From the sequence record NC_024124.2: DNA of 64,000 nt; one strand, given 5' to 3'. The notes beneath the pieces were generated by a model. It saw only the letters and a program-made list of their open reading frames with translations. It had not been told where the DNA came from and made no database searches. Made by a program: the position numbers and the translations under genes. Shown here piece after piece: positions 5,174-57,472 of the stretch. The number at the start of each line of letters is the position of its first letter. Positions within the stretch are counted from its first letter, which is position 1. This stretch comes from Escherichia phage vB_EcoM_JS09.

Positions 5174-5203
5174 GTTTACAACAAGATAGGGCTATGTTAT
5201 AGT
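5174..5203 (+). promoter_or_regulatory. T4-type early promoter inside an inverted repeat
   Basis: GTTTAC (5174-5179), TGnTATAGT around 5195-5203; arms GATAGGGCTAT / ATAGTAGTCCTATC flank the -10. Confidence 0.6.
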
Positions 5204-5231
5204 AGTCCTATCAAATTAAATGGAGTCTGCA

Positions 5232-17452: not shown

Positions 17453-17668
17453 ATGTTATATGACCCAAGCGGCAATTTTGAAAATGGTGTGATTGTTCTG
17501 GAGCCTGAGCATCCAGTTGGTGACGTATACCGCCCAGTTGAAGTATGCGAATGTAATTTTGTTAAAGGTAATACTGGCGGAATTTCCATTGAGCAAGACG
17601 ATGATGTTATTTACCTGGATGCAAGCCAAGTAGAAGCTCTTTATAGCATTTTAAAACACAATCGGTAG
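17453..17668 (+). CDS. hypothetical protein (71 aa), paralog of 17197
   Basis: ORF track trimmed to ATG at 17453 after GAGGAAA; begins MLYDPSGNFENGVIVLEPE. Confidence 0.5.
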   Translation: MLYDPSGNFENGVIVLEPEHPVGDVYRPVEVCECNFVKGNTGGISIEQDDDVIYLDASQVEALYSILKHNR

Positions 17669-17725
17669 TTTACAACTTGGTAGGACTATGTTATAGTAGT
17701 CCTACCAAAACAAATGGAGAACAAA

Positions 17726-26203: not shown

Positions 26204-26459
26204 AGTGTACGGGTACGACTCTACTATTCATAAATGCATTTATTGCGATAATGCGAAACGATTGCTGACTGTTAAGAAACAGCCATTCGAATTCATTAAT
26301 GTTATGCCAGAAAAAGGTGTTTTTGATGATGAGAAAATTGCTGAGCTTCTGGTTAAGCTTGGACGTGAATCACAAGTCGGATTGACTATGCCTCAAGTGT
26401 TTGCTCCTGATGGAACTTCGATCGGTGGCTTTGACCAACTACGAGAATATTTTAAATGA
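26196..26459 (+). CDS. nrdC: phage thioredoxin/glutaredoxin
   Basis: MFKVYGYDSTIHKCIYCDNAKRLL... matches T4 NrdC as recalled, including the CIYC active site. Confidence 0.9.
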   Translation: MFKVYGYDSTIHKCIYCDNAKRLLTVKKQPFEFINVMPEKGVFDDEKIAELLVKLGRESQVGLTMPQVFAPDGTSIGGFDQLREYFK

Positions 26460-42126: not shown

Positions 42127-44838
42127 ATGAAAGAATTTTACTTAACGGTTGAACAGATTGGTGATTCAATTTTTGAACGTTACATCGATTCTAACGGCCG
42201 TGAACGTACTCGTGAAGTAGAATATAAACCATCACTGTTTGCTCATTGTCCGGAAAGTCAGGCTACGAAATATTTCGATATCTACGGTAAGCCGTGTACT
42301 CGTAAGTTGTTCGCTAATATGCGTGATGCCTCACAATGGATTAAACGCATGGAAGATATCGGACTTGAAGCACTTGGCATGGACGATTTCAAATTGGCGT
42401 ATTTGTCTGACACTTATAACTATGAAATCAAATACGACCATACAAAAATTCGTGTGGCTAACTTCGACATCGAAGTAACATCTCCGGATGGGTTCCCTGA
42501 GCCGTCACAAGCAAAACATCCTATTGATGCTATCACTCATTATGACTCAATTGACGACAGGTTCTACGTATTTGATCTATTGAATTCTCCATATGGTAAT
42601 GTGGAAGAATGGTCTATCGAAATTGCAGCTAAGCTTCAAGAACAAGGTGGTGATGAAGTTCCATCCGAAATTATCGATAAAATCATTTATATGCCGTTCG
42701 ATAACGAAAAAGAATTGTTGATGGAATATCTCAACTTCTGGCAACAGAAAACTCCTGTCATTTTGACTGGATGGAACGTTGAGTCATTTGATATTCCATA
42801 TGTGTATAACCGAATCAAGAATATTTTTGGCGAATCTACTGCGAAACGTTTATCACCACATCGTAAAACTCGTGTTAAAGTTATCGAAAACATGTATGGT
42901 TCTCGTGAAATCATTACACTGTTCGGTATCTCTGTTCTTGATTACATTGACCTTTACAAAAAATTCTCTTTTACCAATCAACCGTCGTATTCTCTGGATT
43001 ACATTTCAGAATTTGAATTGAACGTTGGTAAACTGAAATATGACGGCCCTATTTCTAAGCTTCGTGAAAGCAATCACCAACGATATATTTCTTATAACAT
43101 TATCGACGTGTATCGTGTATTGCAAATTGATGCTAAGCGTCAGTTCATCAACTTGAGTTTGGACATGGGTTATTATGCTAAGATACAGATTCAATCCGTG
43201 TTTAGCCCAATTAAAACATGGGATGCTATTATTTTTAATAGCCTTAAAGAACAAAACAAGGTGATTCCACAAGGTCGTTCTCACCCGGTTCAACCTTATC
43301 CTGGCGCTTTTGTTAAGGAACCTATTCCAAATCGATACAAATATGTAATGAGTTTCGACCTTACATCTCTGTATCCAAGTATTATTCGCCAAGTGAATAT
43401 TAGCCCAGAAACAATAGCAGGAACGTTTAAAGTAGCTCCACTGCATGATTATATTAACGCAATCGCTGAACGTCCTTCAGATGTGTACAGTTGCTCTCCT
43501 AACGGCATGATGTATTATAAAGACCGTGATGGTGTAGTTCCAACTGAAATCACTAAGGTCTTTAATCAACGTAAAGAACATAAAGGTTACATGCTTGCAG
43601 CTCAACGTAATGGTGAAATAATTAAAGAGGCATTGCATAATCCTAATCTTTCTGTTGACGAACCATTAGATGTTGATTATCGTTTCGACTTCAGTGATGA
43701 GATTAAAGAAAAGATTAAAAAGTTGTCTGCTAAATCTCTTAATGAAATGTTGTTTAGAGCTCAACGTACTGAAGTTGCAGGTATGACTGCACAGATTAAC
43801 CGTAAATTGCTCATCAACTCACTTTATGGTGCACTTGGAAACGTTTGGTTCCGTTATTATGATTTGCGTAATGCTACTGCAATCACAACATTTGGTCAAA
43901 TGGCTTTACAGTGGATTGAACGTAAAGTTAATGAATATCTGAATGAAGTTTGTGGTACAGAAGGCGAAGCTTTCGTTCTTTATGGTGATACAGACTCTAT
44001 TTACGTATCTGCTGATAAAATTATCGATAAGGTTGGTGAATCTAAATTCCGTGATACCAACCATTGGGTAGACTTCTTAGATAAGTTCGCTCGTGAACGT
44101 ATGGAACCTGCTATTGATAGAGGTTTCCGTGAAATGTGCGAATACATGAACAATAAGCAACATTTGATGTTCATGGACCGAGAAGCTATCGCTGGGCCTC
44201 CGCTTGGTTCTAAAGGTATTGGCGGATTTTGGACTGGTAAGAAACGTTATGCATTAAACGTGTGGGATATGGAAGGTACTCGTTACGCTGAGCCTAAACT
44301 CAAAATCATGGGTCTAGAGACTCAGAAATCTTCGACTCCTAAAGCAGTACAGAAAGCTCTTAAAGAATGTATTCGTCGTATGCTTCAGGAAGGTGAAGAA
44401 TCATTACAAGAATATTTTAAAGAGTTTGAAAAAGAATTCCGTCAATTGAATTATATTAGCATCGCGTCGGTATCTTCTGCGAATAACATTGCTAAATACG
44501 ACGTCGGTGGATTCCCTGGTCCCAAATGCCCGTTCCATATTCGTGGAATTCTGACGTATAACCGGGCTATCAAAGGTAATATCGATGCACCGCAAGTTGT
44601 AGAAGGTGAAAAAGTATATGTTCTGCCTTTACGTGAAGGAAACCCATTCGGTGATAAATGTATCGCATGGCCTTCTGGCACTGAAATCACAGATTTAATT
44701 AAAGACGACGTACTTCATTGGATGGACTACACTGTTCTCCTTGAGAAGACATTTATTAAACCACTTGAAGGATTCACATCAGCAGCGAAACTCGATTACG
44801 AGAAGAAAGCATCTCTATTCGATATGTTCGATTTTTGA
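42127..44838 (+). CDS. 43: DNA polymerase gp43 (family B)
   Basis: 903 aa; exonuclease FDIE motif, polymerase motifs SLYPS and YGDTDS. Confidence 0.95.
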   Translation: MKEFYLTVEQIGDSIFERYIDSNGRERTREVEYKPSLFAHCPESQATKYFDIYGKPCTRKLFANMRDASQWIKRMEDIGLEALGMDDFKLAYLSDTYNYEIKYDHTKIRVANFDIEVTSPDGFPEPSQAKHPIDAITHYDSIDDRFYVFDLLNSPYGNVEEWSIEIAAKLQEQGGDEVPSEIIDKIIYMPFDNEKELLMEYLNFWQQKTPVILTGWNVESFDIPYVYNRIKNIFGESTAKRLSPHRKTRVKVIENMYGSREIITLFGISVLDYIDLYKKFSFTNQPSYSLDYISEFELNVGKLKYDGPISKLRESNHQRYISYNIIDVYRVLQIDAKRQFINLSLDMGYYAKIQIQSVFSPIKTWDAIIFNSLKEQNKVIPQGRSHPVQPYPGAFVKEPIPNRYKYVMSFDLTSLYPSIIRQVNISPETIAGTFKVAPLHDYINAIAERPSDVYSCSPNGMMYYKDRDGVVPTEITKVFNQRKEHKGYMLAAQRNGEIIKEALHNPNLSVDEPLDVDYRFDFSDEIKEKIKKLSAKSLNEMLFRAQRTEVAGMTAQINRKLLINSLYGALGNVWFRYYDLRNATAITTFGQMALQWIERKVNEYLNEVCGTEGEAFVLYGDTDSIYVSADKIIDKVGESKFRDTNHWVDFLDKFARERMEPAIDRGFREMCEYMNNKQHLMFMDREAIAGPPLGSKGIGGFWTGKKRYALNVWDMEGTRYAEPKLKIMGLETQKSSTPKAVQKALKECIRRMLQEGEESLQEYFKEFEKEFRQLNYISIASVSSANNIAKYDVGGFPGPKCPFHIRGILTYNRAIKGNIDAPQVVEGEKVYVLPLREGNPFGDKCIAWPSGTEITDLIKDDVLHWMDYTVLLEKTFIKPLEGFTSAAKLDYEKKASLFDMFDF

Positions 44839-44878: not shown

Positions 44879-45514
44879 ATGAAAACTACTCCTATTACTA
44901 TCGCTATTGACGCAATCATAAAACAAGCTTCTTCTTTGGCCGCTATGGCCAAAGTAATTAGTCAAAACCCTGCTCGTTATAATGCTATTCTAGAAACTCT
45001 TCGACGCCCTGGACTTAGTAATTATGAAAGTCGTGTAATTATTACAGGTGTTGGTAAGAACGCTAATATCGCAACTAAAGCTTCTGAGACATTTGCTTCA
45101 CTCGGTATCCCGAGTATGTACTTGAACACCGGGCATTATTCTCACGGTGATGCAGGATTCATTGCGCCTAATGATGTGTTGATTCATATTAGTCGTTCTG
45201 GTAAAACTGAAGAAATGATAGGCGTGGCTAAGCATCTTAAAACGATTCGTCCGAACGTCAAACAGATTCTGTTGCATTGTAACCCAGACATTCCACAAGA
45301 AAATGAAGCCCTTTTTGATTACTCTTTCTGTACAGGCATCGCAGTAGAGGTTGATGAGAATTCTCTGGCTCCGACCATGTCCACTACATTGTTGTTAGCG
45401 CTTATCGATACTTTTGCTATCAACCTTTCGTCTGAGCGTGGATTTACCTCTAATGACTTCCTTAAGTTCCACCCTGGCGGTGCACTAGGTGCCATGTTAC
45501 GAGGCGAACAATGA
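44879..45514 (+). CDS. SIS-domain sugar-phosphate isomerase, arabinose-5-phosphate isomerase-like
   Basis: RVIITGVGKNANIATKASETFASLGIP ... HGDAG resembles the KdsD/GutQ SIS core; no CBS domains. Confidence 0.75.
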   Translation: MKTTPITIAIDAIIKQASSLAAMAKVISQNPARYNAILETLRRPGLSNYESRVIITGVGKNANIATKASETFASLGIPSMYLNTGHYSHGDAGFIAPNDVLIHISRSGKTEEMIGVAKHLKTIRPNVKQILLHCNPDIPQENEALFDYSFCTGIAVEVDENSLAPTMSTTLLLALIDTFAINLSSERGFTSNDFLKFHPGGALGAMLRGEQ

Positions 45515-45654
45515 AAGCAATAACAATAGGACTTTTACTATTGATGCTTGTCATGACTATCTACTGGAGCTTAACGGCTCCAGTAATGATTCCAACACTT
45601 GTAATCGGATGGATTATGATTGGACTACAAGCAAAGTATGAATGCTTTAACTAG
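45511..45654 (+). CDS. possible small membrane protein (47 aa)
   Basis: Not in ORF track; MKAITIGLLLLMLVMTIYWSL... hydrophobic; ATGA overlap with the SIS gene. Confidence 0.4.
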   Translation: MKAITIGLLLLMLVMTIYWSLTAPVMIPTLVIGWIMIGLQAKYECFN

Positions 45655-45695: not shown

Positions 45696-47381
45696 ATGAA
45701 AAAAGCTGTTATTCTTGGTGCTGGACTGGCAACTCGTTTGTATCCAATAACGCATCATATTCCTAAGGTGCTTGTTAACTATAAACAAGACACTATTCTG
45801 AGCAATTTGTATACAATTTATTCTGACCTTGGTGCAGATGAAATTATTGTAGTAGTTCATTCAAAATTTGCTGAAACTGTTCGAGCTTATTGTGAGCAAG
45901 AAGGGTTCAATGTGACTATTCGTACAGTTGATGAAGCATATGGTTCTGCTTATGCTCTTGCTAAATTACACAAAGATTTAGACGGCCATAATGTAATTGT
46001 TAACTGGTGTGATATTATTCCTGATTTTGGTTCATGGTCTTGGAATGTTAACGCAATCTATGTTAAGGGTGACGAATGTCGATATAATTTCGACGGTGAA
46101 AATATCACTAACGTAGGTTCAACAGGTGGTAATGTTGTAGGAATTTATCAGTTCAAAGACTGGGAATTCTATATGGGTTCTACTGATGAGGAAATTCATG
46201 AATACTGCAAAGGACGTGATTTCGTAGAATTCCTTTACGGCAGCGCATTCAATAAATCAGAGCTTATGAATCTAATTGATTTAGGTGATATGCCTAAACT
46301 TGAAAAAGCTCATGAAGTTCGTGAACTTAATCGTAGTTTTAATGCAGTTGAAATTGGTGAAGAAACTGTAACTAAATTCGCATTAACCGAACAGGGCCGA
46401 GCTCTTCAGAAAGATGAGATTTCATGGTATCTTAAAGTGAAATCAGATTCAGTTCCTCAGTTAGTTTCTGTTAATGAAAATAACTTTGAAATGGAACGCA
46501 TTAAAGGTAAGCCGGCATTTGAATATATTAAATCCAAATCGAGTCTTGCTCGTCCACAAATTGTTGATGCAATTTTAGACGCACTGAAATTCAGCACAGA
46601 CACTTATTTTGTAAGTCCTGAAACTGTTCGTCGTGATTTCACTAAAGAATTCTATACGAAAGTTATTGATCGTTGTGAAAGCATTCAACCATTGATTGAT
46701 TCATTTGGTAAAATCACACATGTGAACTACACTAAGATTGGACGTCTGAAGCCAATGTTGAAACAAGCTTTAGAACACCTTATTCGTTATCATAACCGTT
46801 CTCAGGGACAGTACTCTGTTATTCATGGCGACCCGAACTTCAGTAATACTATGATTACTGATAATGGTGAAGTCAAGTTTATCGACCCTCGCGGATATTT
46901 TGGCGAAACCAAGATTTATGGGCCAAAATTGTATGATGAAGCTAAAGTGCTTTATGCTGTTTCAGGTTATGATGAATTCAACGCTAATCCGACCTGGGGA
47001 CAGTTTACTATTGATGAAACAACTTGTAATGTGACTATTAACATCAATCCATTAGTTTACAAATATGGAAAGATGAGTTCGTTTAACGAGTATCATCATT
47101 TGGCTGTAGCAATTATCTGGATTGCATTAGGTGGTTATTTCAAGAATAATCCACTTAAAGCGGTAGCCGCATATTATAAAGGTATGGAACTTCTGACTAA
47201 GCAATTACGTAACATGGGCCGTGTACTTCAGGACGGCTCTATTAGTTATGACGTAGCAGAACCTGTAACGGCTACTCTGATTACAAAAAATCCTGGTAAA
47301 TGGGTACTAACTGATAAAGAAACTGGTGTTTCCTATCGTCCAATCGGTGGCGATATCACTCATCAATGGGAACGAATCTAA
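45696..47381 (+). CDS. bifunctional sugar-1-phosphate nucleotidyltransferase / kinase (561 aa)
   Basis: N-terminal MKKAVILGAGLATRLYPIT (GlmU/RmlA/LicC-type NTase); C-terminal SVIHGDPNFSNTMITDNGEVKFIDPRGYFG (APH/choline-kinase-like kinase). Confidence 0.75.
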   Translation: MKKAVILGAGLATRLYPITHHIPKVLVNYKQDTILSNLYTIYSDLGADEIIVVVHSKFAETVRAYCEQEGFNVTIRTVDEAYGSAYALAKLHKDLDGHNVIVNWCDIIPDFGSWSWNVNAIYVKGDECRYNFDGENITNVGSTGGNVVGIYQFKDWEFYMGSTDEEIHEYCKGRDFVEFLYGSAFNKSELMNLIDLGDMPKLEKAHEVRELNRSFNAVEIGEETVTKFALTEQGRALQKDEISWYLKVKSDSVPQLVSVNENNFEMERIKGKPAFEYIKSKSSLARPQIVDAILDALKFSTDTYFVSPETVRRDFTKEFYTKVIDRCESIQPLIDSFGKITHVNYTKIGRLKPMLKQALEHLIRYHNRSQGQYSVIHGDPNFSNTMITDNGEVKFIDPRGYFGETKIYGPKLYDEAKVLYAVSGYDEFNANPTWGQFTIDETTCNVTININPLVYKYGKMSSFNEYHHLAVAIIWIALGGYFKNNPLKAVAAYYKGMELLTKQLRNMGRVLQDGSISYDVAEPVTATLITKNPGKWVLTDKETGVSYRPIGGDITHQWERI

Positions 47382-49261: not shown

Positions 49262-49978
49262 ATGGGAAAACATAACACAATGAAATATATCAAAGCCGCA
49301 GATTTTCAAACCGCATTTAAAGCAGTCAATCGTGAAATTTTAGAAAACCCGGAATTCGTAACTGATTCTCGTATTGGACGTTGTAATGAAATTGGGTCTA
49401 TGACAGTAGTTGTTGACACTCCATCATCATTCAAAATGACCGACCCACGTATTAACCGCATCTCTTATGAATATGCCGAAGACTTCTGGAAGTTTATGAT
49501 TTCTGGTGGTACCAACGCAGAAGAAGCGTTTAAGGCATATCCTAATGTCGCTAAATTTATTTCTAAACCAAAATCAGATGTTTTGCCGGCGAACTTCAAC
49601 ACTTTCTATGGTCCTCGCATTGCGGCCCAATTACCAGCTCTTCTAAAAGAACTTAAAGAGAAGCCTAACTCCCGAAGAGTTGTGTTCCAAATTCTAGAAA
49701 GTTCTGATCAGGCTTTGCTTGATTCAGACGAAACGCTTGAATATCCATGTACTGACTCAGTGACTTATTATATTCGTGATGGTAAGCTTTATACCCACTG
49801 TCATATGCGTTCTCAGAACTGTGCTGTTGTTATGCAGTTGGATTTTTATCTCCAAGGAAAATTACTTCATTATATCGCTAACGAATGTGGTGTAGAAGTT
49901 GGTGATTATACTCATACCATGGTAAGTGCCCATGTGTTTGAACGTGATTTTGATTATGTTAAAGGATTCCTTGACTAA
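49262..49978 (+). CDS. 42: dCMP hydroxymethylase-like (thymidylate synthase fold)
   Basis: EYPCTDSVTYYIRDGKLYTHCHMRSQN...D aligns with the T4 gp42 core around the catalytic Cys and Asp; 238 aa. Confidence 0.65.
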   Translation: MGKHNTMKYIKAADFQTAFKAVNREILENPEFVTDSRIGRCNEIGSMTVVVDTPSSFKMTDPRINRISYEYAEDFWKFMISGGTNAEEAFKAYPNVAKFISKPKSDVLPANFNTFYGPRIAAQLPALLKELKEKPNSRRVVFQILESSDQALLDSDETLEYPCTDSVTYYIRDGKLYTHCHMRSQNCAVVMQLDFYLQGKLLHYIANECGVEVGDYTHTMVSAHVFERDFDYVKGFLD

Positions 49979-55004: not shown

Positions 55005-55322
55005 ATGAAAACCATCGATTGTAAAGCAGAATTTAAGATTTTTTATCACGGTTCAAGTAGTTCAGCTAACATCGAAAACATGCTTTGTCCTCCTGAAGAA
55101 ACAGGAGTTCTGTCTGAAACAGGACGTAAGAAAAACTTGGATCGTGTATTCTTTACCGAAGATATCGGTTTAGCAAAGATTTATGCAGGACGAGCAGCAC
55201 GCTCTTATGGAGGTGAACCACGTCTCTATCGAGTAATTTCTCCGGTAGATGTAGTTCAAATGAATAATACTAAAGGTGCTACAGTTTATCACGCTGAATG
55301 GGCATTTTGCGAGGAAATATGA
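55005..55322 (+). CDS. hypothetical protein (105 aa)
   Basis: ORF track; GGAGAA upstream. Confidence 0.55.
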   Translation: MKTIDCKAEFKIFYHGSSSSANIENMLCPPEETGVLSETGRKKNLDRVFFTEDIGLAKIYAGRAARSYGGEPRLYRVISPVDVVQMNNTKGATVYHAEWAFCEEI

Positions 55323-55510
55323 GCAAATTAACTAAAGTTACTTTTATTGGCTGGTTTAAAAATGATAATACGTTCACTAAAGATATCATGTTATCAGGTG
55401 ACCGTGAAGAAATCGAGTGGGTTGCGGTACAACTTGCTGAAGTGAACAAAGCATTAGTTAAAGCATTTGTTAATGACGAGAAAGTTTTTGAAGCTGATTT
55501 CAGAGGATAA
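55319..55510 (+). CDS. hypothetical protein (63 aa)
   Basis: ORF track trimmed to ATG at 55319 (ATGA overlap). Confidence 0.45.
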   Translation: MSKLTKVTFIGWFKNDNTFTKDIMLSGDREEIEWVAVQLAEVNKALVKAFVNDEKVFEADFRG

Positions 55511-55724: not shown

Positions 55725-55784
55725 CTGTTTACAAGCACCACATACTGTGTTACTATCTTTCTATCAACTACAGAGGAAATTGAA

Positions 55785-56153
55785 ATGAAAAAATTAATCG
55801 CTTTAGCAATGGTATTTGGATTAACCGGATGTGGTGCCCATGGCTTTATCCCTAATAACGTCGGCCAATTGATTTACAATCCGAATGTTAAACAGTACGA
55901 CCAACCTAAAGTTGAAGTGGAAGACCCGGTTACTGTAGGTAATCGAATGATTCAAGCTGATGCCCATGCTCAACGTTATCGTGACTCTGATACTGTAGCA
56001 TTGTCAAAAGAACAACGCGTTAAAGAACATTGTCTACAGGCTACTGAAATCGCATTCATTCGCTATGTTGAAACAACTGGTAAAGAGCCTACCCAGAAAC
56101 AAATCGCGAATAACTACGTCCAGTGTATTGAACGTTTAAACAAATTTAATTAA
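55785..56153 (+). CDS. lipoprotein (122 aa)
   Basis: Signal peptide with lipobox MKKLIALAMVFGLTGC; AGAGGAAA upstream. Confidence 0.6.
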   Translation: MKKLIALAMVFGLTGCGAHGFIPNNVGQLIYNPNVKQYDQPKVEVEDPVTVGNRMIQADAHAQRYRDSDTVALSKEQRVKEHCLQATEIAFIRYVETTGKEPTQKQIANNYVQCIERLNKFN

Positions 56154-56214
56154 TTGGTTTACACCAAAGTTAAAACAAGATACTATAAACATAACAAATC
56201 AAGAGGAAATTAAC

Positions 56215-56463
56215 ATGGAATTATTCGTAGCTAGTTCAGTAGCAGTTTTAATCGCAGGTATTGGTTCAATCATCATTTACATGCTGCCTTGGGTAATCGC
56301 ACTTATTCGTGGCACAAAAAGCACAACAGCAATCTTCTTTGTATCTTTACTCTTTAACTGGACGATGGTTGGTTGGATTGGAACTTTAATTTGGTCTATC
56401 GTTGCCGAAAAGAAATCGGCTCAGCAGCCTCAACAAGTAATTATTATTCGCGAAAAAGAATAA
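56215..56463 (+). CDS. Imm-like superinfection immunity membrane protein (82 aa)
   Basis: YMLPWVIALIRGTKSTTAIFFVSLLFNWTMVGWIGTLIWSIV fits the Imm-type pattern (P..IA..R ... N....GWI..LIW) as I recall it. Confidence 0.5.
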   Translation: MELFVASSVAVLIAGIGSIIIYMLPWVIALIRGTKSTTAIFFVSLLFNWTMVGWIGTLIWSIVAEKKSAQQPQQVIIIREKE

Positions 56464-56526
56464 ACTTGTTTACATTATAGATGGACTATAGTATAGTAGT
56501 CCTATCAAATCAACTAAGGAGTTAAA

Positions 56527-56820
56527 ATGAAAAAGTTATCATTGGCAGCAATCTTACTTGCAGTATCATGTGCACCGGCTCCAGTTACGGCAGGTTATGA
56601 TAAAGACCTCTGTGAGTGGTCAATGACTGCAAATCAAGAAGATGTTGAACAACAAATCTTCTCTGATATCATGAACATCACTAAACGAGACCGTCCTAAT
56701 ATGGTTAATAAAGTTGTTGAACAACTTAAGTCTGGCGGTATCATGCAGTACAACTATGTTTTGTATTGTGACCCTAATTTCGATAACAAAGATATCGTAA
56801 CCGAAATCACAGGTGAATAA
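56527..56820 (+). CDS. sp: Spackle-like periplasmic protein (97 aa)
   Basis: 97 aa with signal peptide MKKLSLAAILLAVSCAPAPVTA, close to the primase gene; matches my recollection of T4 Sp in size and features. Confidence 0.5.
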   Translation: MKKLSLAAILLAVSCAPAPVTAGYDKDLCEWSMTANQEDVEQQIFSDIMNITKRDRPNMVNKVVEQLKSGGIMQYNYVLYCDPNFDNKDIVTEITGE

Positions 56821-56821
56821 C

Positions 56822-57472
56822 ATGATTTATTACATGCACAAAAATGCGCCATTTAAATATGGTAAATTTCCTAATGCGCAATGTTATAATATAACGCCGA
56901 ATGAAAATAATAACGGATATCATATTGGTGTAATTTTTGTAATTGTTAAAGATAACGAAATCGTTGCCTGGGCAGATTTTAAAGGTACAACATATGATGT
57001 TAATCCTGTGCCTTTCACATATTACAATATAATGGATTTGGCATATGATTATAATTGGTTTAATCATGACGCGTTGGTTCATATTGAAGGTGTAGGATTT
57101 GACATCTCCTATTCTAGCTATTCATTATGTCCTATGAGCCGAGCTCACGGTAAAGATGTATCATATCTTTCAATTCGGAAACGTGTAAACTTCAAACGTA
57201 GTACAGAGTATGTTGGTGGACTCTTTGTTAAAGATAATAAAATAACCCGTATTAGTTATCCTCTAAGTGTAGGTCAAAAAGATGTTGATGTTGATTTAGA
57301 CTTAACTGAAAATAACATTAATCATATTGCTTCTGTATATTTTGATATCGATGAAAAAATTGTAGTGTGTGGATACGAATTACCACCCGAAGAAAAGGCT
57401 GAAGCAATTGAAGTCGAATTAGAAATTTCTGTCGATGACCAAATATTTAATGCATTTATGAATCGAGGTTAA
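56822..57472 (+). CDS. hypothetical protein (216 aa)
   Basis: ORF track frame (56813 is a GTG) trimmed to ATG at 56822. Confidence 0.6.
   Translation: MIYYMHKNAPFKYGKFPNAQCYNITPNENNNGYHIGVIFVIVKDNEIVAWADFKGTTYDVNPVPFTYYNIMDLAYDYNWFNHDALVHIEGVGFDISYSSYSLCPMSRAHGKDVSYLSIRKRVNFKRSTEYVGGLFVKDNKITRISYPLSVGQKDVDVDLDLTENNINHIASVYFDIDEKIVVCGYELPPEEKAEAIEVELEISVDDQIFNAFMNRG

What the first reader, a model, noticed from the sequence alone, without database searches (positions are those of the whole stretch)
56215..56820. Adjacent Imm-like and Spackle-like genes: a possible relocated superinfection-exclusion pair
An 82-aa membrane protein with an Imm-type pattern (P..IA..R…GWI..LIW) is immediately followed by a 97-aa signal-peptide protein that resembles Spackle. 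In T4 the two superinfection-exclusion genes are far apart, with imm lying between 42 and 43. Here that slot is taken by the sugar cluster and an Imm-like gene appears next to sp, each behind its own early promoter.
Basis: partly seen in the sequence, partly recalled or inferred. Interest (0 to 1): 0.45.

Follow-up and report, generated by a model that had tools for sequence, protein, structure and literature searches.

The report
Known imm–spackle gene pair of RB69-like phages
The two adjacent small genes are true counterparts of phage T4's two "keep other phages out" genes, imm and spackle. Their side-by-side position is the normal, already annotated layout of RB69-like phages, so the finding is correct but ordinary.

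Summary
**Verdict: observation confirmed, interpretation supported, not new.**

- **Source.** The window is an RB69-type (Mosigvirus) T4-like phage.
- **The two genes.**
  - ORF 56215-56463 (82 aa) matches Pfam Imm_superinfect and is 64% identical to T4 Imm.
  - ORF 56527-56820 (97 aa) matches Pfam T4_Spackle end to end and is 66% identical to T4 Sp. It keeps the signal peptide, both disulfide cysteines and every gp5-contact residue named in the structure paper.
- **Layout.**
  - T4 has 43–imm.1–imm–42 … 41–dmd–61.4–sp.
  - The window has 43–SIS gene–…–42-like–…–41–dmd–61.4–imm.1–imm–sp. So a two-gene block (imm.1 and imm) sits next to sp.
  - A 47-aa membrane ORF that follows imm in T4 and three other lineages is still beside gene 43, marking the old site.
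- **Promoters.** Each of the three genes has a T4-early-type promoter motif upstream.
- **Why it is not new.** The RB69 GenBank record already names imm.1, imm and sp at these positions, and about 153 phage records share the block.
- **Which layout is derived.** Seven other T4-like lineages keep imm after gene 43, so the RB69 layout is the derived one.
- **One addition.** Providencia-type T4-like phages independently carry an overlapping imm–sp pair at a third site, so the linkage has arisen at least twice.
- **Limit.** Function is inferred by homology only.

The parts
55727..55756 (+). T4-early-type promoter motif (GTTTACA-N17-TACTAT) upstream of imm.1
   Evidence: Motif only; no transcript data.
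55785..56153 (+). imm.1: predicted lipoprotein (lipobox L-T-G-C at residues 13-16), function unknown. It travels with imm.
   Evidence: Pfam DUF5481 E 3.7e-9. 32% identical to T4 Imm.1, E 1e-18. The L-x-G-C lipobox is invariant in four lineages. Annotated imm.1 in RB69.
56157..56186 (+). T4-early-type promoter motif (GTTTACA-N17-TACTAT) upstream of imm. T4 has no such promoter here; its imm.1-imm gap is only 11 nt.
56215..56463 (+). imm: two-span inner-membrane superinfection-immunity protein, ortholog of T4 Imm
   Evidence: PF14373 56.9 bits. phrog_1039. 64% identity over the full length to T4 Imm. Hydropathy and charge pattern match T4 Imm. 100% identical to RB69 Imm.
56468..56497 (+). T4-early-type promoter motif (GTTTACA-N17-TATAGT) upstream of sp. 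Its -10 region lies inside a stem-loop at 56480-56506.
   Evidence: Fold -13.2 kcal/mol. Near-identical promoter/stem-loop cassettes occur at 5174 and 17668.
56527..56820 (+). sp (spackle, T4 gene 61.3 / rIV): secreted periplasmic inhibitor of the tail lysozyme gp5. Signal peptide 1-22, mature protein 23-97.
   Evidence: PF25676 145 bits. 66% identity to T4 Sp without gaps. PDB 6x6o/7cn6; the 75-aa mature chain aligns to residues 23-97. C29, S32-A35, Q37, N76 and C81 are conserved.
44879..45514 (+). SIS-domain gene (RB69 ORF055c homolog) in the position directly after gene 43 where T4 has imm.1-imm
   Evidence: Pfam SIS. RB69 annotation. Proposed arabinose-5-phosphate-isomerase-like role in PMC6024577.
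45511..45654 (+). 47-aa hydrophobic ORF (RB69ORF054c homolog) that follows imm in T4, VR25-type, JS98-type and fDHCT2 phages. Here it stays beside 43/SIS and marks the former imm site.
   Evidence: tblastn 53-63% identity in those four lineages. RB69 note 'similar to T4 42-imm intercistronic region'.

Best explanation
The pair are the orthologs of T4 imm and sp in an RB69-type (Mosigvirus) phage.

**Proposed mechanism (inferred from T4).** Both genes are transcribed early. Imm inserts into the inner membrane as a two-span protein and stops the DNA of later-arriving T-even-type phages from crossing into the cytoplasm. Sp is exported by its signal peptide, forms its Cys29-Cys81 disulfide in the periplasm, and binds the lysozyme domain of the incoming phage's tail spike gp5. 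The cell wall is then not pierced. Together they give a two-layer block on superinfection and on lysis from without.

**The unusual gene order.** It is lineage-specific. The imm.1-imm block, which sits directly after the DNA polymerase gene 43 in other T4-like lineages, lies here between 61.4 and sp. The block either moved or was re-acquired. The SIS gene of the arabinosyl-hmC sugar cluster now occupies the old site.

**Likely route of the rearrangement.** Recombination between the repeated early-promoter cassettes that flank these small genes is the most likely cause.

**Shown here:** gene identity, conserved key residues, gene order, and distribution of the arrangement.

**Inferred:** the exclusion functions in this phage, the direction and mechanism of the move, and any benefit of adjacency.
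For: **Identity**
- Pfam and PHROG matches well above the cut-offs.
- 64% identity to T4 Imm and 66% to T4 Sp over the full length.
- Solved T4 Spackle structures match.

**Mechanism-relevant residues**
- Sp keeps C29/C81 and the contact residues S32, M33, T34, A35, Q37 and N76 named in PMC7677548.
- RB69 gp5 keeps R181, R182, R187, K189, R312, K321 and R326 on the other side of the interface.
- Imm keeps both hydrophobic spans, the R/K loop and the C-terminal QVIIIREKE tail.

**Gene order**
- T4 versus RB69/window.
- imm lies directly after 43, or after 43 and imm.1, in T4-type, VR25, JD18, NP4 (Gelderlandvirus), fDHCT2 and Serratia 4S phages. JS98-type loci keep imm and the small ORF about 3 kb upstream of 42, but gene 43 lay outside what I fetched.
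- The small ORF that follows imm in four of those lineages remains next to 43 in the window.
- About 153 phage records carry the whole 1.8-kb block at 95% identity or more, matching the 152 records that carry this Imm variant.

**Promoters**
- Three consecutive early-type motifs. The motif is 15-fold enriched and strand-biased in the window.
- No terminator-like site lies between the genes.
- The promoter consensus TTTACW-N17-TAYWAT is the one described for shuffling-associated PeSL cassettes in T4-type phages (PMC4122927).
Against: - No experiment on RB69-type Imm or Sp was found. Function rests on homology to T4.
- RB69 does not show lysis inhibition (PMC6832632). The part of Sp's T4 phenotype tied to lysis inhibition (rIV) may therefore not apply.
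- Junction comparison could not pin the breakpoints. Promoter similarity between the window and T4 is no better than similarity among unrelated early promoters.
- The window's Imm is closer to T4's (64%) than to the Imm of the phages with the closest gp43: fDHCT2 (gp43 85%, Imm 50%) and VR25 (gp43 75%, Imm 50%). The 'move' could therefore be loss plus horizontal re-acquisition.
Confidence: 0.85

Rival explanations
1. The block was not moved within the genome. The ancestor lost its resident imm when the 43-to-uvsX segment carrying the sugar cluster was replaced. It then regained imm.1-imm by horizontal transfer from a T4-like donor, inserted at the promoter-rich 61.4/sp junction.
For: The genome is mosaic.
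- gp43 and UvsX are closest to fDHCT2 or JS98-type phages (85% and about 90%).
- gp41, gp61 and Imm are closest to T4 (85%, 74% and 64%).
- Imm is only about 50% identical to the Imm of VR25 and fDHCT2, and those phages have no imm.1 between 43 and imm.
Against: - Imm.1 is only 32% identical to T4 Imm.1, so any donor was not a close T4 relative.
- Short proteins give weak phylogenetic signal.
- Sp itself is closer to VR25 (75%) than to T4 (66%), so similarity patterns in this region are noisy.
Confidence: 0.3
2. Adjacency of imm and sp is the ancestral state, and the split T4 arrangement is derived.
For: A distant clade of T4-like phages of Providencia type carries imm and sp as an overlapping pair. 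The pairing is kept while the proteins diverged to about 45-48% identity.
Against: - That pair lies in a different neighbourhood (tk-rI region), has no imm.1 and uses stop/start overlap. The window has a 63-nt promoter-bearing gap instead.
- Seven lineages, including the window's closest gp43 relatives, keep imm upstream near 43/42.
- The small ORF normally downstream of imm is still beside 43 in the window.
Confidence: 0.08
3. The adjacency is a neutral by-product of promoter-cassette shuffling and changes nothing about regulation or function.
For: - Each gene keeps its own promoter.
- T4 manages with the genes 6.3 kb apart.
- This region of T4-like genomes is plastic: extra ORFs sit between 41 and dmd, dmd is duplicated in L036, and homing-endonuclease-like inserts occur.
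Against: - The linkage arose at least twice.
- In the Providencia-type clade the two genes overlap and the pairing is conserved across deep divergence. That hints at selection for co-expression or co-inheritance.
Confidence: 0.5

Closest known systems
T4 Imm (immunity to superinfection; Pfam PF14373)
   Same: Same length class (82 against 83 aa), 64% identity, the same two hydrophobic spans, the same positions of charged residues and an identical C-terminal QVIIIREKE. Preceded by imm.1, as in T4.
   Different: Located between 61.4 and sp instead of between 43 and 42. It has its own promoter motif between imm.1 and imm, where T4 has an 11-nt gap. No functional data exist for this variant.
T4 Spackle (gp61.3, rIV; Pfam PF25676; PDB 6X6O, 6XC0/6XC1, 7CN6/7CN7)
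   Same: 97 aa, gap-free 66% identity, signal peptide ending A-x-A before GYDKD, Cys29/Cys81, and all named gp5-contact residues. Same position upstream of 61.2 (AdfA) and gene 61.
   Different: Its upstream neighbour is imm rather than 61.4. Its promoter carries a stem-loop over the -10 region. The host phage group (RB69) lacks lysis inhibition.
RB69 imm.1-imm-sp locus (GenBank AY303349, 17.9-19.8 kb)
   Same: 98.6% DNA identity over 1.8 kb, with the same genes in the same order. Imm is 100% and Sp 99% identical.
   Different: Nothing material. The window is a close relative: 99.1% identity to vB_Eco_mar005P1.
imm-sp pair of Providencia-type T4-like phages (PSTRCR_121 / Gualtarvirus, PSTCR6)
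   Same: An Imm_superinfect gene is followed directly by a T4_Spackle gene on the same strand.
   Different: Stop/start overlap instead of a promoter-bearing spacer. No imm.1. Located in the tk-rI region. The proteins are only about 30-40% identical to the window's.
PeSL promoter-stem-loop cassettes of T4-type phages (PMC2839356, PMC4122927)
   Same: TTTACW-N17-TAYWAT-type promoters flank small non-core early genes. The sp promoter has an embedded stem-loop and two near-identical copies elsewhere in the window.
   Different: The imm.1 and imm promoters show no significant stem-loop. A role in this particular rearrangement is inferred, not shown.

Membership tests
T4 Imm / Pfam PF14373 Imm_superinfect | Profile match above the curated cut-off | tested here: met
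   56.9 bits against a cut-off of 27.9, covering the whole 42-position profile. phrog_1039 E 1.2e-30.
T4 Imm / Pfam PF14373 Imm_superinfect | Full-length orthology to T4 Imm (small two-span membrane protein with a basic loop and a charged C-terminal tail) | tested here: met
   64% identity over 82/83 aa. Hydrophobic stretches about 1-34 and 38-64; R32/K35; tail charges at positions equivalent to T4's.
T4 Imm / Pfam PF14373 Imm_superinfect | Blocks DNA entry of superinfecting T-even phages when expressed | not testable with these tools
   Needs plating and DNA-injection assays. No published test for RB69-type Imm was found.
T4 Spackle / Pfam PF25676 | Profile match above the curated cut-off, end to end | tested here: met
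   145 bits against a cut-off of 27, positions 1-96 of 96. phmmer to 6x6o E 1.4e-39.
T4 Spackle / Pfam PF25676 | Cleavable signal peptide giving a 75-aa periplasmic protein | tested here: met
   Hydrophobic residues 1-23. V-T-A/GYD aligns with T4 A-M-A/GYD. The 75-aa mature chain 7cn6 aligns to residues 23-97. The cleavage itself was not assayed.
T4 Spackle / Pfam PF25676 | Cys29-Cys81 disulfide pair | tested here: met
   Both cysteines are present at the same positions. They are invariant even in the Providencia-type homologs.
T4 Spackle / Pfam PF25676 | gp5-lysozyme contact residues (S32, M33, T34, A35, Q37, N76) and the basic partner residues on gp5 | tested here: met
   All six are conserved in Sp. 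RB69 gp5 keeps R181, R182, R187, K189, R312, K321 and R326. gp5 lies outside the window, so the RB69 gene was used.
T4 Spackle / Pfam PF25676 | Binds and inhibits the gp5 lysozyme domain | not testable with these tools
   Needs biochemistry. Shown only for the T4 proteins (PMC7677548).
PeSL mobile promoter cassettes | Early promoter TTTACW-N17-TAYWAT combined with a stem-loop, repeated in the genome next to variable small genes | tested here: inconclusive
   The promoter consensus is met at all three sites. A stem-loop appears only at the sp promoter (z -1.8); its copies at 17668 and 5174 are stronger (z -4.2 and -2.8). Breakpoint analysis was not decisive.

The most novel reading that the evidence does not exclude
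Linkage of the inner-membrane blocker Imm with the periplasmic lysozyme inhibitor Sp has evolved independently at least twice in T4-like phages. In Mosigvirus it includes the lipoprotein Imm.1; in Providencia-type phages the two genes overlap as a translationally coupled pair. This would mean the two 'separate' T4 exclusion functions are selected to be co-expressed or co-inherited as one envelope-defence module, possibly with physical cooperation at the injection site.
Probability: 0.2. Interest if true: 0.4.

Novelty: already known. Interest (0 to 1): 0.15.

Why it matters
- It confirms that the first-stage reader can recognise Imm and Spackle from raw sequence.
- The locus itself adds nothing beyond the RB69 annotation of 2003.
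- The small added value is comparative. The move involved imm.1 and imm together, a small conserved membrane ORF marks the old site, and a second clade independently pairs imm with sp.
- If the pairing is adaptive, it would suggest that the two classical T4 exclusion proteins work as a unit. That would be worth a simple genetic test.

Tried and rejected
1. **Breakpoint mapping by promoter similarity.** I scored the window's 14 +-strand early-promoter regions against the three in the T4 locus. The imm.1 and imm promoters are no more similar to their presumed T4 counterparts than unrelated promoters are, so no junction could be assigned.
2. **IMG/VR searches for more Providencia-type Sp loci.** These gave one locus and none. 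The protein database search and contig look-ups were more useful.
3. **Literature searches for an explicit description of the imm relocation, or for RB69 Imm/Sp experiments.** They found only reviews of T4 work, the arabinosyl-hmC paper (which does not mention imm), and a genome-comparison paper that counted Imm.1 as absent from the RB69 group.
4. **'The sugar cluster displaced imm' as a sufficient cause: rejected.** Serratia phage 4S keeps imm.1-imm after 43 ahead of its homologous sugar genes, and fDHCT2 also keeps imm after 43.
5. **Structure prediction was not run.** Solved T4 Spackle structures at 66% identity already cover Sp. An 82-aa two-span protein would add little.

Full report
**What is there**

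The window is a T4-like phage of the RB69 type (genus Mosigvirus). The 1.8 kb around the finding is 99.1% identical to Escherichia virus vB_Eco_mar005P1 and 98.6% identical to RB69.

**Identity of the 82-aa protein**

- It matches Pfam PF14373 (Imm_superinfect) at 56.9 bits against a cut-off of 27.9.
- It matches PHROG 1039 'immunity to superinfection' at E 1.2e-30.
- It is 64% identical to T4 Imm over its whole length, including the C-terminal QVIIIREKE.
- Two hydrophobic stretches (about 1-34 and 38-64) are separated by R32/K35 and followed by a charged tail. The charged residues sit at positions equivalent to those of T4 Imm.

**Identity of the 97-aa protein**

- It matches Pfam PF25676 (T4_Spackle) end to end at 145 bits and PHROG 1586.
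- It is 66% identical to T4 Sp without a gap.
- It matches the solved Spackle chains 6x6o and 7cn6. The 75-residue mature chain aligns to residues 23-97.
- The structure paper on the Spackle-gp5 complex names Cys29-Cys81 as the disulfide and Ser32, Met33, Thr34, Ala35, Gln37 and Asn76 as contact residues (PMC7677548). All are present at the same positions here.
- The partner residues on gp5 (Arg181, Arg182, Arg187, Lys189, Arg312, Lys321, Arg326) are all kept in RB69 gp5. gp5 lies outside the window, so I used the RB69 gene, which is 78% identical to T4 gp5.

**Gene order**

In the direction of early transcription:

| Phage | Order |
|---|---|
| T4 | 43, imm.1, imm, 42, b-gt, segA, uvsX, 40, 41, dmd, 61.4, sp, 61.2, 61.1, 61 |
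| Window | 43 (42127-44838), SIS-domain gene (44879-45514), 47-aa membrane ORF (45511-45654), nucleotidyltransferase fusion (45696-47381), further cluster genes, 42-like gene (49262-49978), uvsX, 40, 41, two extra ORFs, dmd, 61.4, imm.1 (55785-56153), imm, sp, 61.2 (AdfA), …, 61 |

- The unit found next to sp is the two-gene block imm.1-imm, not imm alone.
- Imm.1 here is 32% identical to T4 Imm.1. It carries a lipoprotein box, L-x-G-C, that is invariant in four lineages.
- The 47-aa ORF is informative. In T4 a homologous ORF overlaps the imm stop codon and fills the imm-42 gap (L002 9377-9228; unannotated in the RefSeq record).
- Homologs follow imm in VR25-type, JS98-type and fDHCT2 phages too.
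- In the window this ORF stayed beside gene 43. It now overlaps the stop codon of the SIS gene.
- The SIS gene therefore sits exactly where imm.1-imm sits in T4.

**Promoters**

- The motif GTTTACA-N16-18-TANNNT occurs 15 times in the window against 0.95 expected. Fourteen copies are on the + strand.
- Three consecutive copies lie directly upstream of imm.1 (55727), imm (56157) and sp (56468).
- No terminator-like site lies among these genes, so read-through is likely.
- T4 has no promoter between imm.1 and imm; the gap there is 11 nt.
- The sp promoter has its -10 element inside a stem-loop at 56480-56506 (-13.2 kcal/mol). It closely resembles the promoter/stem-loop units at 5174 and 17668.
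- The promoter consensus equals the one reported for the shuffling-associated PeSL cassettes of the T4/PST group, TTTACW-N17-TAYWAT (PMC4122927).
- I could not map the breakpoints from promoter similarity. Cassette-mediated recombination remains an inference.

**Which arrangement is derived**

- imm lies directly after gene 43, with or without imm.1, in:
  - T4-type loci;
  - VR25 (Gaprivervirus);
  - JD18 (Jiaodavirus);
  - NP4 (Gelderlandvirus);
  - fDHCT2;
  - Serratia phage 4S.
- JS98-type loci keep imm and the small ORF about 3 kb upstream of the 42-like gene. Those loci are cut before gene 43.
- Only RB69-type loci (L001, L007, L008 and the window) have imm.1-imm next to sp.
- In the phage collection, 153 records carry at least 80% of the 1.8-kb block at 95% identity or more. 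That matches the 152 records holding this Imm variant. The layout is therefore a genus-wide trait.
- A sugar cluster alone does not explain the move. Phage 4S keeps imm.1-imm ahead of a homologous SIS gene and cluster, and fDHCT2 also keeps imm after 43.
- The genome is mosaic: gp43 and UvsX are nearest to fDHCT2 or JS98-type phages, while gp41, gp61 and Imm are nearest to T4. I cannot separate an intragenomic move from loss followed by re-acquisition.

**A second case of pairing**

- Providencia phage PSTRCR_121 (Gualtarvirus) and the more distant Providencia phage PSTCR6 each carry an Imm_superinfect gene whose stop overlaps the start of a T4_Spackle gene. So do two metagenomic or IMG/VR relatives.
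- This pair lies in the tk-rI region.
- Within that clade the pair is kept while Imm and Sp diverge to about 45-48% identity.
- Each of these phages has only one copy of each gene.
- Other divergent Sp homologs stay in the 41-61 region without imm.
- Linkage of imm and sp has therefore arisen in at least two different contexts.

**How it most likely works**

- From T4 (established knowledge: Lu and Henning 1989-1994 for Imm, cited from memory; PMC7677548 for Sp): Imm in the inner membrane prevents entry of superinfecting DNA. Periplasmic Sp inhibits the tail lysozyme gp5.
- The conservation of the relevant residues on both Sp and gp5 makes the same mechanism very likely here.
- None of this has been tested for RB69-type proteins in the literature I could search.
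- RB69 lacks lysis inhibition (PMC6832632). The lysis-inhibition side of the T4 sp (rIV) phenotype may therefore not apply.

**Novelty and verdict**

- The RB69 GenBank record already annotates imm.1, imm and sp at these positions, with the T4 functions in the notes.
- I found no paper that discusses the relocation itself, but it is plain from the annotation.
- The finding is already known and of low interest.
- The only mildly new points are the marker ORF at the old site, the co-travelling lipoprotein gene, and the independent imm-sp pairing in Providencia-type phages.

Noticed in passing
window 45511-45654 (+); T4 locus L002 9377-9228 (-), i.e. T4 record about 26227-26376: A conserved 47-49-aa hydrophobic ORF (MKAITIGLLLLMLVMTIYWSLTAPVMIPTLVIGWIMIGLQAKYECFN). 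It overlaps the stop codon of whatever gene lies upstream: imm in T4, the SIS gene here. It is annotated in RB69 as ORF054c but is absent from the T4 RefSeq annotation. It is 53-63% identical across T4, VR25-type, JS98-type and fDHCT2 phages, which suggests a real, translationally coupled small membrane protein of unknown function.
   Followed up: partly
window 55785-56153 (+): Imm.1 has a lipoprotein signal with an invariant L-x-G-C box in the window, T4, JD18 and Serratia 4S. It precedes imm in several lineages and moved together with it. The T4 RefSeq product name 'iduronate sulfatase' looks spurious. One genome-comparison paper (PMC5885020) counted Imm.1 as absent from the RB69 group, probably because identity is only 32%.
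   Followed up: partly
L030 2519-2952; L032 2783-3249; L033 3810-4240; L038 2786-3258: Providencia-type T4-like phages carry imm and sp as an overlapping gene pair in the tk-rI region. Both genes are annotated 'hypothetical' in the two Providencia records. This is a second, independent linkage of the two exclusion genes.
   Followed up: yes
window 45696-47381 (+): A single 561-aa ORF with an N-terminal nucleotidyltransferase domain corresponds to RB69 ORF053c plus ORF052c. This agrees with the suggestion in PMC6024577 that the split in the RB69 record is a sequencing artefact.
   Followed up: partly
window 56822-57472 (+) and 55319-55510 (+): sp is followed 2 nt later by 61.2, which matches Pfam AdfA (anti-DarT factor A) at E 6e-120. 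dmd (the antitoxin-like inhibitor of RnlA/LsoA) lies 0.7 kb upstream. The exclusion genes therefore sit inside a run of counter-defence genes. The AdfA profile match begins at the ATG at 56822, 12 nt upstream of the start annotated in RB69.
   Followed up: no
window 5174-5231, 17668-17725, 56468-56526 (+): Three near-identical promoter units in which the -10 hexamer (TATAGT) sits in the 3' arm of a G+C-rich stem (GG(A/G)CTA…TAGTCC). The T4 promoter ahead of dmd has the same design. They look like the PeSL promoter/stem-loop cassettes described for T4-type phages.
   Followed up: partly
L036 2162-2560: A metagenomic T4-like contig carries two tandem Dmd-family genes (64 and 67 aa) upstream of sp.
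   Followed up: no
L039 3001-3303 (Klebsiella phage vB_Kpn_AM_K4, record of 288,685 bp): A 100-aa protein in this long phage record matches the T4_Spackle family. It is similar to the window's Sp only over the N-terminal half (54% over 48 aa), in a neighbourhood with sparse, mixed-strand gene calls. It may be a fragment or an assembly chimera.
   Followed up: no
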